Source of the DNA: Escherichia coli
GTDB lineage: Bacteria > Pseudomonadota > Gammaproteobacteria > Enterobacterales > Enterobacteriaceae
NCBI RefSeq assembly: GCF_003790525.1
Contig: NZ_CP033635.1
Length of the DNA stretch: 64,000 nucleotides
Direction: 5' to 3' (one strand)
A program made the position numbers. Shown in pieces: positions 33,001-36,000 of this stretch (within the stretch, counting starts at the first letter, position 1; each line of letters starts with the position of its first letter).

Positions 33001-36000
33001 GTTGCTGCTTCAATATCATCTTCTTCTTTCACTTTGCTGGTTTTCAGCAGAATGGCAGAGACAACGAAGGAGACTGCCATTGCCGCACACACACCCGCGA
33101 TGTTAGCGAAGTAAGCACCTTTTGGCGTCATCGCCAGTACAGCAAGGATAGAACCCGGAGATGCCGGAGAAACCAGCCCACCGCCCAGGATAGTCAGCGT
33201 GAATACGCCAGTCATACCGCCGAGGATAACGGCCAGAATCAGACGCGGATTCATCAGCACATACGGGAAGTAGATTTCGTGGATACCCCCCAGGAAGTGG
33301 ATGATTGCCGCACCGCCCGCAGACTGTTTAGCGCTACCACGACCAAAGAACATGTACGCCAGCAGCACGCCCATACCCGGACCTGGGTTAGCTTCAATCA
33401 GGAAGAAGATGGATTTACCCAGTTCATGGGACTGCTGAATACCCAGCGGCGAGAAGATACCGTGGTTAATGGCGTTGTTGAGGAACAGGATTTTCGCCGG
33501 TTCAACAAAGATAGACGCCAGCGGCAGCATGTCATGGACAACCATGAAGTTAACGCCCGCCGCCAGCATTTTAGACAGGGCTTCAACAACCGGGCCAATG
33601 CCGAGAAATGCCAGAATAGCGAGGATCATCCCGATGATACCAGCGGAGAAGTTATTCACCAGCATTTCAAAACCGGATTTGATCTTACCGTCTACCCAGC
33701 GGTCGAAGTGCTTAATGCACCAGCCGCCCAGCGGACCTGCAATCATAGAACCGAGGAACATCGGCATGTCTGCGCCGACGATAACGCCCATGGTGGTAAT
33801 GGCACCGACTACGCCGCCACGTTCGCCGCCTACCAGCTTACCACCGGTATAACCGATCAGCAGTGGCAGGAGATAAGTGATCATCGGCCCGACCAGCTTC
33901 GCCAGCGTTTCGTTCGGTAACCACCCTGTTGGAATAAATAACGCGGTGATGATACCCCACGCGATAAACGCGCCGATATTTGGCATCACCATGTTGCTGA
34001 GGAAACGACCAAAGCTTTGCACTTTGATCTTAATATCGGATGACATAAAAACACCCCTTCTTATGTTTGCTGTCGCGCAGGCTGGAAGCCCGAGGTTTTT
34101 TGTTAATGTGGCGGCAGAGGTAGCCGGACCTTGTAGATACTGCGAAATCTGGCACTGAATCGGTTAACTGTCCAGTCAACGGCTTTTTGTGTGATATGAA
34201 TCACATAAATATAGGGGGTAGAGAGGTAATTGACGTGATGTGCATCACAAAACTCTTGTGTAAAAAAGCAACAAGGCGGCGATTTTCGCTAAAAATGGCA
34301 TTTAAATGTGAGTAATGTCACATTTTTGTTTTGTTAGTTTGTTGAATCTTTGTGATCTGAATCACAAGATATTTTCTTACGGCGTTCACCTGATGTGATC
34401 TGCAGCATGTTATGCCTTCGTCATAAAATCGTTATGTAACTAAGCAACTCATCACCTCTAAAAATTATTCTTCGGTGTTATGGCGAGAATCGCCAACCCG
34501 GATTATTGTCAAAATATCAGCCCGACTCCCATCTGGCTGCCAGCCAAAAACAACACTGATAAACGTGAATCCGAGGCAGATATGTTTCTAAACTACTTCG
34601 CGTTGGGAGTGCTGATCTTCGTCTTTCTGGTGATTTTTTATGGAATCATCGCGATACATGACATCCCTTATCTGATTGCCAAAAAGCGTAATCACCCCCA
34701 TGCCGACGCTATTCATACAGCGGGCTGGGTGAGCCTGTTTACTCTGCATGTTATCTGGCCGTTCCTGTGGATCTGGGCGACGCTCTATCAACCGGAGCGT
34801 GGCTGGGGTATGCAGTCACATGTTGCGTCGCAGGAGAAAGCGACTGACCCGGAAATCGCCGCACTTTCTGACCGAATTTCCCGGCTGGAGCATCAACTCG
34901 CCGCCGAGAAAAAGACTGACTATTCCACGTTCCCGGAGATCTAAATATGGATCTATTGATTGTTTTAACTTACGTGGCGCTGGCGTGGGCGGTCTTTAAA
35001 ATCTTCCGCATTCCGGTAAATCAGTGGACGCTGGCGACGGCGGCGCTGGGAGGCGTGTTTCTGGTGAGTGGTTTGATTTTGTTGATGAACTACAACCACC
35101 CTTACACTTTTACCGCGCAAAAGGCAGTGATAGCGATCCCCATCACGCCACAGGTGACGGGAATTGTTACTGAAGTCACCGACAAAAATAATCAGCTTAT
35201 TCAGAAGGGCGAGGTGCTTTTTAAGCTCGACCCGGTTCGTTACCAGGCGCGAGTTGACAGACTTCAGGCTGACCTGATGACGGCGACGCATAATATAAAG
35301 ACGCTGCGCGCGCAGCTCACTGAAGCGCAGGCCAACACCACCCAGGTTTCAGCGGAGCGCGACCGTCTGTTTAAAAATTATCAACGTTACCTGAAAGGCA
35401 GCCAGGCGGCGGTGAATCCGTTCTCGGAACGTGACATCGACGATGCGCGGCAAAATTTCCTCGCGCAGGACGCGCTGGTGAAAGGCTCGGTGGCGGAGCA
35501 GGCGCAGATCCAGAGCCAGCTCGACAGTATGGTTAACGGCGAGCAGTCGCAGATTGTGAGCTTAAGAGCGCAACTTACTGAAGCAAAATATAACCTTGAG
35601 CAGACTGTCATTCGCGCACCGAGCAATGGCTACGTTACTCAGGTACTGATCCGCCCAGGTACATACGCAGCTGCCTTGCCGCTACGTCCGGTGATGGTTT
35701 TCATCCCCGAGCAAAAACGGCAAATTGTCGCCCAATTTCGGCAGAACTCGCTGTTACGTCTGAAACCCGGCGATGATGCGGAAGTGGTGTTTAACGCGCT
35801 ACCTGGGCAGGTGTTCCACGGCAAACTGACTAGTATTTTACCTGTCGTGCCAGGCGGTTCGTATCAGGCGCAAGGGGTACTGCAATCATTAACCGTCGTG
35901 CCCGGCACGGACGGTGTGCTGGGAACCATTGAACTGGACCCTAACGATGATATCGATGCTTTACCCGACGGCATCTACGCCCAGGTGGCAGTCTACTCCG

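What the first reader, a model, noticed from the sequence alone, without database searches (positions are those of the whole stretch)
34190..34410. Cluster of CRP-type palindromes in the mtlA control region
Two perfect TGTGA-N6-TCACA sites and at least two related palindromes lie within about 220 bp upstream of mtlA. Multiple CRP sites are a known feature of the mtl promoter. Seeing them confirms correct strand and start assignment for mtlA.
Basis: partly seen in the sequence, partly recalled or inferred. Interest (0 to 1): 0.2.

Follow-up and report, generated by a model that had tools for sequence, protein, structure and literature searches.

The report
Five CRP sites upstream of mtlA
This is the long-known set of five binding sites for the sugar-sensing regulator CRP in front of the E. 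coli mannitol-uptake operon, intact and correctly spaced in this strain, so the feature is ordinary and already explained.

Summary
These three are the only perfect matches in the 64 kb (0.06 expected by chance).

The site centres are spaced 44, 73, 44 and 43 bp apart. This reproduces the published E. coli K-12 mtlADR operator sites CRP5 to CRP1, at -58.5 to -262.5. All 50 pentamer bases are identical to K-12.

A PWM built from independent ChIP-seq sites ranks four of the sites 1-4 in the window. The 44/73/44 layout is kept upstream of mtlA in 47 of 49 sampled Enterobacterales loci.

Published work shows that cAMP-CRP activates the promoter. MtlR, which lacks a DNA-binding domain, represses it by bridging CRP dimers 43-46 bp apart. 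The window's MtlR is 100% identical to K-12's.

mtlA lies on the minus strand (32133-34046). The sites sit in the divergent mtlA/yibI spacer, and being palindromes they cannot by themselves prove strand or start. The K-12 alignment does that.

Verdict: already known, low interest. The only unexplained detail is an invariant ACAAA next to CRP2.

The parts
34190..34205 (.). CRP5, the promoter-proximal CRP site. Sequence TGTGATATGAATCACA, centre 34197.5, equivalent to -58.5.
   Evidence: Exact core. PWM score 18.2, rank 2 in the window. Orthologous to K-12 TGTGATTGATATCACA, with one N6 difference. That K-12 allele is listed under the mtlA CRP ChIP-seq peak in ETEC.
34234..34249 (.). CRP4. Read in the mtlA direction it is TGTGATGCACATCACG; centre 34241.5, equivalent to -102.5, 44 bp from CRP5.
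   Evidence: One core mismatch. PWM score 17.9, rank 3. Both pentamers are identical to K-12, with two N6 differences. Across 43 Enterobacterales sequences TGTGA is kept in 43/43 and the other arm is TCACN.
34307..34322 (.). CRP3. Sequence TGTGAGTAATGTCACA, centre 34314.5, equivalent to -175.5, 73 bp from CRP4.
   Evidence: Exact core. PWM score 15.1, rank 4. Best 22-mer consensus match in the window, 17/22.
34351..34366 (.). CRP2. Sequence TGTGATCTGAATCACA, centre 34358.5, equivalent to -219.5, 44 bp from CRP3.
   Evidence: Exact core. PWM score 19.6, rank 1. Identical to K-12 and to the ETEC ChIP-seq site. Reported essential for activation in K-12.
34394..34409 (.). CRP1, a weak half-site. 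Sequence TGTGATCTGCAGCATG, centre 34401.5, equivalent to -262.5, 43 bp from CRP2.
   Evidence: Three core mismatches. PWM score 9.8, rank 12. Reported dispensable and poorly bound in K-12. Weakly conserved across species.
34169..34174 (-). Inferred -35 hexamer, TGGACA.
   Evidence: Its position follows from the published site numbering. It lies 17 bp from the inferred -10. The same hexamer is present in 34/43 Enterobacterales sequences. The generic promoter scan did not detect it.
34146..34151 (-). Inferred -10 hexamer, CAGATT. It is a weak hexamer, as expected for an activator-dependent promoter.
   Evidence: Inferred from the published numbering. The same hexamer is present in 31/43 sequences.
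34139..34139 (-). Inferred transcription start of mtlADR (±1-2 nt), giving a 5' UTR of about 93 nt.
   Evidence: Back-calculated from CRP5 at -58.5 and the CRP5 centre at 34197.5. Not measured here.
34154..34167 (+). Cra (FruR)-like box, ACTGAATCGGTTAA, lying between the -35 and the -10.
   Evidence: It matches the Cra consensus RSTGAAWCSNTHHW at every position; that consensus is from my own knowledge. A Cra site in this promoter is reported in the literature cited. The GATTCAGT part is conserved.
34338..34342 (-). Invariant ACAAA in the CRP2-CRP3 spacer, 16.5-20.5 bp from the CRP2 centre (about -203 to -199). Role unknown.
   Evidence: ACAAA is exact in 42 of 43 unique Enterobacterales sequences, while neighbouring spacer columns carry 0.1-0.7 bits.
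34370..34375 (-). Conserved AAAATA on the upstream flank of CRP2. Role unknown.
   Evidence: Information content is 1.2-2.0 bits over these columns, against about 0.3 further upstream.
32133..34046 (-). mtlA, the mannitol PTS enzyme IICBA (637 aa).
   Evidence: ORF. 633/637 identical to K-12 MtlA. Annotated as mtlA in the 100%-identical record CP029747.
30890..32038 (-). mtlD, mannitol-1-phosphate 5-dehydrogenase.
   Evidence: Annotation of the identical record, mapped onto window coordinates.
30303..30890 (-). mtlR, the repressor that docks on paired CRP dimers.
   Evidence: 195/195 identical to K-12 MtlR.
34582..34944 (+). yibI, the divergent neighbour (DUF3302). It is followed by yibH at 34947-36083.
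   Evidence: Annotation of the identical record and the ORF list.

Best explanation
Window 34190-34409 is the operator of the E. coli mannitol operon mtlADR, which is transcribed on the minus strand. It holds five cAMP-CRP binding sites.

What is shown here: the sites are present, they are orthologous to the K-12 sites, they score as strong CRP sites, their spacing is exact, and they are under purifying selection.

What is taken from published K-12 work, and so inferred for this strain:
- When glucose is absent, cAMP-CRP occupies CRP2-CRP5. CRP5 at -58.5 recruits RNA polymerase in the class I manner.
- CRP2, CRP3 and CRP4 are also needed for activation, probably in an architectural role.
- Without mannitol, MtlR, which has no DNA-binding domain, bridges two CRP dimers whose sites are 43-46 bp apart. 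Here those pairs are CRP4-5, CRP2-3 and CRP1-2. This blocks the contact between CRP and polymerase.
- With mannitol, dephosphorylated EII-Mtl (MtlA) sequesters MtlR at the membrane and the operon is induced.
- A Cra box between the -35 and -10 adds minor repression.
For: Site statistics:
- Three exact cores against 0.06 expected.
- Four sites at PWM ranks 1-4 of 64 kb, using a matrix from independent ChIP-seq sites.

Orthology:
- The spacer is 98% identical to K-12 and collinear, with all 50 pentamer bases identical. The five differences inside the sites all lie in N6.
- Centres at 34197.5, 34241.5, 34314.5, 34358.5 and 34401.5 give spacings of 44/73/44/43. These equal the published -58.5, -102.5, -175.5, -219.5 and -262.5.
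- The partner proteins are present: MtlA is 99% identical and MtlR 100% identical.

Binding evidence from the literature:
- Two ChIP-seq peaks in ETEC H10407 list these 16-mers.
- The yibI-mtlA spacer is the second most abundant Genomic SELEX clone class.
- EMSA and chromosomal site mutants in K-12.

Selection:
- In 47 of 49 Enterobacterales loci with the four-site quartet (spacing 44 / 72-74 / 44), the middle gap is exactly 73 bp, although the distance to the ATG ranges from -148 to -272.
- Arms carry 1.75-2.0 bits, N6 0.4-0.6 bits.
- Among 9 E. coli alleles the arms are polymorphic at 0/50 positions, against 17% of four-fold degenerate sites.
Against: Nothing found here contradicts this explanation. 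The limits are these.
- No binding or transcription was measured for this allele.
- The TSS and the -10/-35 are back-calculated from published numbering, and the generic promoter scan did not find them.
- The comparative sample was selected by requiring two perfect cores 43-46 bp apart, so conservation of CRP2 and CRP3 is partly built into the sample. CRP4, CRP5 and the 73-bp gap were not selected for.
- CRP1 is a poor site and may not be occupied.
Confidence: 0.95

Rival explanations
1. The distal sites (CRP1, CRP2, perhaps CRP3) also, or mainly, control the divergent yibI-yibH genes rather than mtlA.
For: The sites are palindromic and sit in a divergent spacer. CRP1 is 180 bp from the yibI ATG. 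The ETEC ChIP-seq table assigns the CRP2/CRP1 peak to yibI. The SELEX paper notes that both genes lie downstream of the binding sequence.
Against: Chromosomal mutation of CRP2 abolishes mtl expression and growth on mannitol in K-12, so CRP2 serves mtlA. No sigma-70-like promoter was found on the plus strand between 34400 and 34580. The CRP quartet is kept upstream of mtlA in many loci where no yibI/yibH was detected in the DNA held (only 14 of 65 have it), although many of those loci are truncated. No yibI expression data were found.
Confidence: 0.15
2. The palindromes are chance matches or remnants of a repeated element and have no regulatory role.
For: None beyond the fact that short palindromes do occur by chance; two 1-mismatch matches per window are expected.
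Against: Three exact sites against 0.06 expected. The repeat search shows similarity confined to the 16-bp boxes, with no extended duplication. Arms are invariant within E. coli and across Enterobacterales while N6 drifts. Published ChIP-seq, SELEX and EMSA data show binding.
Confidence: 0.01
3. The boxes are bound primarily by another regulator with a similar motif (for example another CRP/FNR-family protein), not by CRP.
For: CRP/FNR-family proteins recognise related palindromes. This is from my own knowledge.
Against: The cores are the CRP-specific TGTGA/TCACA, not the FNR-type TTGAT-N4-ATCAA. They score in the top quarter of ChIP-seq-defined CRP sites. CRP binding to the K-12 and ETEC versions is experimentally shown.
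Confidence: 0.02

Closest known systems
E. coli K-12 mtlADR operator with five CRP sites (Ramseier & Saier 1995; Lee et al. 2026, PMC13421365)
   Same: It is the same locus with the same five sites and identical pentamers. Spacing is identical (43/44/73/44), the promoter and Cra box are the same, and MtlR is identical.
   Different: About 15 substitutions and one 1-bp indel in the 535-bp spacer. Five of the substitutions lie in the N6 centres of CRP1, CRP3, CRP4 (two) and CRP5. The window alleles of CRP3, CRP4 and CRP5 score 0.4-1.6 bits higher than K-12's. This allele is a minority one, at least 99% identical in 151 of 5404 matching genomes.
malE/malK divergent control region with four CRP sites
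   Same: Several CRP sites in a divergent spacer of a sugar-uptake operon; a class III CRP promoter.
   Different: The relevant adjacent malK sites are 34 bp apart and MtlR does not bind. It binds only after the gap is lengthened to 44 bp.
CytR-CRP repression complex at deoP2
   Same: A repressor acts by contacting two DNA-bound CRP dimers and blocking activation. The comparison is made in PMC13421365.
   Different: CytR has its own DNA-binding domain and operator between the CRP sites. MtlR has none and reads only the CRP-CRP geometry. The deoP2 details are from my own knowledge.
mtl promoters of other Gammaproteobacteria (Pasteurellaceae, Orbaceae, Vibrio)
   Same: Paired perfect CRP cores 43-44 bp apart directly upstream of mtlA. 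Vibrio and Salmonella are reported.
   Different: Pasteurellaceae have two or three sites (40 + 44 bp, or 43 bp) close to the ATG. Orbaceae have a single 44-bp pair. Neither has the 73-bp gap or the four-site layout.

Membership tests
CRP (cAMP receptor protein) binding site | Match to the TGTGA-N6-TCACA core or the CRP weight matrix, above chance. | tested here: met
   Three exact sites, one with 1 mismatch and one half-site. PWM scores of 15.1-19.6 for four sites, ranks 1-4 of 64 kb; the fifth scores 9.8.
CRP (cAMP receptor protein) binding site | Physical binding of cAMP-CRP. | not testable with these tools
   Published for the K-12 and ETEC versions, which have identical pentamers: EMSA, ChIP-seq and Genomic SELEX. 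Not measured for this allele.
mtlADR operator (five-site class III CRP promoter) | Located upstream of mtlA and orthologous to the K-12 operator. | tested here: met
   Collinear alignment at 98% identity with every pentamer identical. The mtlA, mtlD and mtlR order is as in K-12.
mtlADR operator (five-site class III CRP promoter) | Centre-to-centre spacings of 43, 44, 73 and 44 bp. | tested here: met
   The centres give 44/73/44/43, reading from the promoter outward.
mtlADR operator (five-site class III CRP promoter) | Sites at -58.5 to -262.5 relative to the mapped TSS. | tested here: inconclusive
   The TSS was not measured. Back-calculation gives 34139 and yields a plausible TGGACA-17 bp-CAGATT promoter that is conserved in 31-34 of 43 species sequences. 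The generic scan missed it.
MtlR-CRP anchoring system | Adjacent CRP sites 43-46 bp apart, plus an mtlR gene. | tested here: met
   Three such pairs (CRP4-5 at 44 bp, CRP2-3 at 44 bp, CRP1-2 at 43 bp). MtlR is 195/195 identical to K-12.
MtlR-CRP anchoring system | MtlR supershift of CRP-bound DNA and derepression by EII-Mtl. | not testable with these tools
   Shown only in K-12.

The most novel reading that the evidence does not exclude
The published model treats the DNA between CRP sites as a sequence-neutral ruler, but one element there is conserved. An ACAAA sits 16.5-20.5 bp from the centre of CRP2, the site reported as essential. It is invariant in 42 of 43 Enterobacterales sequences, while the rest of that spacer drifts freely. 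An AAAATA flank on the other side of CRP2 is also conserved.

The most novel reading not excluded is that these are contact points for a further component of the far-upstream activation complex. Candidates are an RNA polymerase alpha C-terminal domain docked beside CRP2, or an unidentified factor. That would help explain why a site at -219.5 is indispensable.
Probability: 0.15. Interest if true: 0.35.

Novelty: already known. Interest (0 to 1): 0.08.

Why it matters
It matters little as a discovery. It confirms that the window is ordinary E. coli chromosome and that the mtlA annotation (minus strand, ATG at 34046) and its regulatory region are intact in this strain.

It is a clean positive control for the scan: the first-stage reader correctly recognised a textbook multi-site CRP operator from raw sequence.

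The comparative data add modest support to the 2026 model that MtlR reads CRP-CRP spacing. The 44/73/44 layout is held across Enterobacterales even though the distance to the start codon changes. In the sampled genomes of CRP-bearing orders, nearly every pair of perfect CRP cores 43-46 bp apart lies at mtlA.

Tried and rejected
- **Rfam scan.** Searched 33800-34800 on both strands at E <= 1 and found nothing. There is no known RNA element here, such as a counterpart of the Vibrio MtlS antisense RNA.
- **Generic sigma-70 and terminator scan.** It gave only one chance-level hit inside the mtlA start and missed the real, weak, CRP-dependent promoter, so it is uninformative here.
- **Tandem-duplication origin of the two 44-bp pairs.** The repeat search shows similarity only in the 16-bp boxes.
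- **The window-specific TTGACT (34176-34181, minus strand; TCGACT in K-12) as a new -35.** No -10-like hexamer follows at 16-18 bp (read by eye), and the position is variable across species. Rejected.
- **N6 centres as mutation hot spots.** Among 9 E. coli alleles, 10 of 30 N6 positions are polymorphic against 20 of 455 other spacer positions (p = 2e-6). But four-fold degenerate sites in mtlA, yibI and yibH are 17% polymorphic (99/579). N6 is therefore about neutral or only marginally higher (p = 0.046, post hoc), and it is the rest of the spacer that is unusually constrained (p = 4e-11). The hot-spot idea is mostly rejected.
- **Matching ACAAA to known motifs.** I compared it by eye with the IHF, Fis and ArcA consensus motifs. 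None fits the conserved columns. This rests on my own knowledge and was not a formal scan.
- **Non-mtl hits of the paired-core pattern.** Three lie next to yibI/yibH with mtlA cut off, and four more sit at locus edges in Enterobacterales or Pasteurellaceae. The rest are in phyla without this system or in 23-bp tandem repeats of Tannerella and Treponema MAGs. No second target class emerged.

Full report
**Observation.** Reading 33900-34700 and searching the whole window for TGTGA-N6-TCACA gives exactly three perfect matches: 34190-34205, 34307-34322 and 34351-34366. Shuffled sequence gives 0.06 on average and never more than one. Allowing one mismatch adds 34234-34249 (CGTGATGTGCATCACA). A half-site, TGTGATCTGCAGCATG, lies at 34394-34409. 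The repeat finder recovers the same family without prior knowledge, and similarity does not extend beyond the 16-bp boxes.

**Context.** The ORF at 32133-34046 on the minus strand encodes a 637-aa protein that is 633/637 identical to K-12 MtlA. The window is 100% identical here to E. coli 2016C-3878, where the genes are annotated yibT, mtlR, mtlD, mtlA, then divergently yibI and yibH. The cluster therefore lies in the 535-bp divergent spacer between mtlA (minus strand) and yibI (plus strand, ATG at 34582), 144-363 bp upstream of the mtlA start. MtlR (30303-30890) is 195/195 identical to K-12.

- *Alignment with K-12*. The spacer is collinear and 98% identical. All 50 pentamer bases of the five sites are identical. 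The five substitutions that fall inside the sites all lie in the central N6.
- *PWM scan*. I built a symmetric weight matrix from the 103 CRP 16-mers of the ETEC H10407 ChIP-seq table (PMC4287617), leaving out the four mtlA/yibI entries. The four strong sites score 19.6, 18.2, 17.9 and 15.1 bits. They are ranks 1-4 of all positions in the 64 kb, and each scores at least as high as 77-99% of the ChIP-seq sites. The half-site scores 9.8 (rank 12).

**Identity with the known operator.** Lee et al. 2026 (PMC13421365) cite Ramseier & Saier 1995. They describe five CRP sites in the K-12 mtl operator centred at -262.5, -219.5, -175.5, -102.5 and -58.5, which gives spacings of 43, 44, 73 and 44 bp. 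The window centres are 34401.5, 34358.5, 34314.5, 34241.5 and 34197.5, giving the same 43/44/73/44.

Back-calculation puts the transcription start at about 34139 on the minus strand. That yields a -35 TGGACA (34169-34174), a 17-bp spacer and a weak -10 CAGATT (34146-34151). The generic promoter scan misses this promoter, as can happen with an activator-dependent promoter. Between the two hexamers, ACTGAATCGGTTAA (34154-34167, plus strand) fits the Cra consensus RSTGAAWCSNTHHW. The consensus is from my own knowledge; a Cra site at this promoter is reported.

**Mechanism (published for K-12, inferred here).**
- cAMP-CRP is required for activation.
- Chromosomal mutation of CRP2, CRP4 or CRP5 abolishes expression and growth on mannitol. 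Mutation of CRP3 reduces it slightly, and CRP1 is dispensable.
- MtlR has no DNA-binding domain. It docks on two CRP dimers whose sites are 43-46 bp apart and is thought to block contact between CRP and the polymerase alpha C-terminal domain.
- Mannitol transport dephosphorylates EII-Mtl, which then sequesters MtlR at the membrane.
- The window has three pairs with the required spacing, and both MtlR and MtlA are intact, so the same mechanism is expected.

**Independent binding evidence.** ChIP-seq in ETEC H10407 shows two CRP peaks in this spacer. One lists the CRP2 and CRP1 16-mers, the other CRP5 and CRP4. In Genomic SELEX the yibI-mtlA spacer was the second most abundant clone class, with 38 clones.

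**Comparative test.** One pattern scan of the species-representative genome collection looked for two perfect cores 43-46 bp apart.
- 63 lie immediately upstream of an mtlA homologue, in Enterobacterales, Pasteurellaceae and Orbaceae.
- Three more sit next to yibI/yibH with mtlA cut off. Four more Enterobacterales or Pasteurellaceae hits lie at locus edges.
- The remainder are in unrelated phyla or in short tandem repeats.
- Among Enterobacterales, 49 loci (counting the window, K-12 and strain 2016C-3878) have a four-site quartet spaced 44 / 72-74 / 44 bp. In 47 of them the middle gap is exactly 73 bp (one has 72, one 74). The distance from the proximal site to the ATG varies from 148 to 272 bp.
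- In 43 unique sequences the pentamer arms carry 1.75-2.0 bits per column, the N6 centres 0.4-0.6, and all other columns 0.59 on average.
- CRP2 and CRP3 were selected for by the search, so their conservation is partly built in. CRP4 (TGTGA in 43/43, other arm TCACN), CRP5 (NGTGA...TCACA) and the 73-bp gap were not selected for, so they are independent evidence.

**Within E. coli.** I compared nine alleles: the window, K-12 and seven taken at even steps down the identity ranking.
- The arms are polymorphic at 0 of 50 positions.
- N6 positions are polymorphic at 10 of 30.
- The rest of the spacer is polymorphic at 20 of 455.
- Four-fold degenerate sites of mtlA, yibI and yibH are polymorphic at 99 of 579, or 17%.

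The apparent N6 hot spot therefore mostly reflects neutral drift inside an otherwise strongly constrained spacer. N6 against four-fold sites gives p = 0.046, post hoc. The other spacer positions against four-fold sites give p = 4e-11.

**Rivals.**
- Chance or a repeat relic is excluded by the statistics, the selection pattern and the published binding data.
- A different regulator is unlikely given the CRP-specific cores and the experiments.
- An additional role of the distal sites in yibI-yibH transcription cannot be excluded. The ChIP-seq table assigns that peak to yibI. But CRP2 is demonstrably needed for mtl, and no plus-strand promoter was detected.

**Unexplained residue.** In the CRP2-CRP3 spacer an ACAAA (34338-34342, minus strand; about -203 to -199) is exact in 42 of 43 Enterobacterales sequences, while neighbouring columns carry 0.1-0.7 bits. 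An AAAATA flank upstream of CRP2 (34370-34375) is also conserved. The published study states that the spacers share no similarity and that arbitrary spacer DNA supports MtlR binding in vitro. This conservation therefore points to something outside that model. It is a small lead, not a finding.

**Verdict.** The feature is the already known mtl operator in a minority E. coli allele. Novelty: already known. Interest: low.

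Noticed in passing
window 34338-34342 and 34370-34375 (minus strand); the same columns in L003-L122: ACAAA, 16.5-20.5 bp from the CRP2 centre, is invariant in 42 of 43 Enterobacterales mtl operators, although the rest of the CRP2-CRP3 spacer is unconserved. 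An AAAATA flank on the other side of CRP2 is also conserved. Neither is accounted for by the published spacing-only model.
   Followed up: partly
window 34047-34581, compared with L001 and L130-L136: Among 9 E. coli alleles the N6 centres of the CRP sites hold 10 of the 30 polymorphic spacer positions, including 5 of 6 positions in CRP4, which has six different N6 alleles. Against four-fold degenerate sites (17% polymorphic) this is only marginally high. The rest of the spacer is about 4 times less polymorphic than synonymous sites.
   Followed up: yes
window 32039-32132 (mtlA-mtlD spacer): The spacer is 94 bp here and 229 bp in K-12. A 135-bp block present in K-12 is absent in this strain. 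I think that block is REP/BIME-like palindromic units, but I did not classify it.
   Followed up: partly
window 34176-34181 (minus strand): This strain has TTGACT where K-12 has TCGACT, just downstream of CRP5. It is a 5/6 match to a -35 hexamer, but no -10 follows at the right distance, and the position is variable across species.
   Followed up: partly
window 33950-34650: This allele of the mtlA/yibI spacer is rare. Only 151 of 5404 matching E. coli genomes are at least 99% identical; most are about 97.6%. The exact 61-bp stretch around CRP4 occurs in 158 genomes.
   Followed up: partly
window about 36239-38500 (downstream of yibH): In the identical record this strain carries a frameshifted helix-turn-helix regulator, a sigma-factor-like HTH protein and a fimbrial gene. 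K-12 has yibU and yibV at the corresponding place.
   Followed up: no
L016, L051, L069, L070, L097, L098, L113 (Pasteurellaceae), upstream of mtlA: There are three perfect CRP cores spaced 40 and 44 bp apart close to the mtlA start. The 40-bp gap falls outside the 43-46 bp range reported for MtlR docking. Orbaceae (Gilliamella) have only one 44-bp pair.
   Followed up: no
L047-L049 (and perhaps other Tannerella or Treponema MAG loci such as L112): In L047-L049 the TGTGA-N6-TCACA units recur with a 23-bp period in short tandem arrays. This is unrelated to CRP and mtl, and the nature of these repeats was not examined.
   Followed up: no
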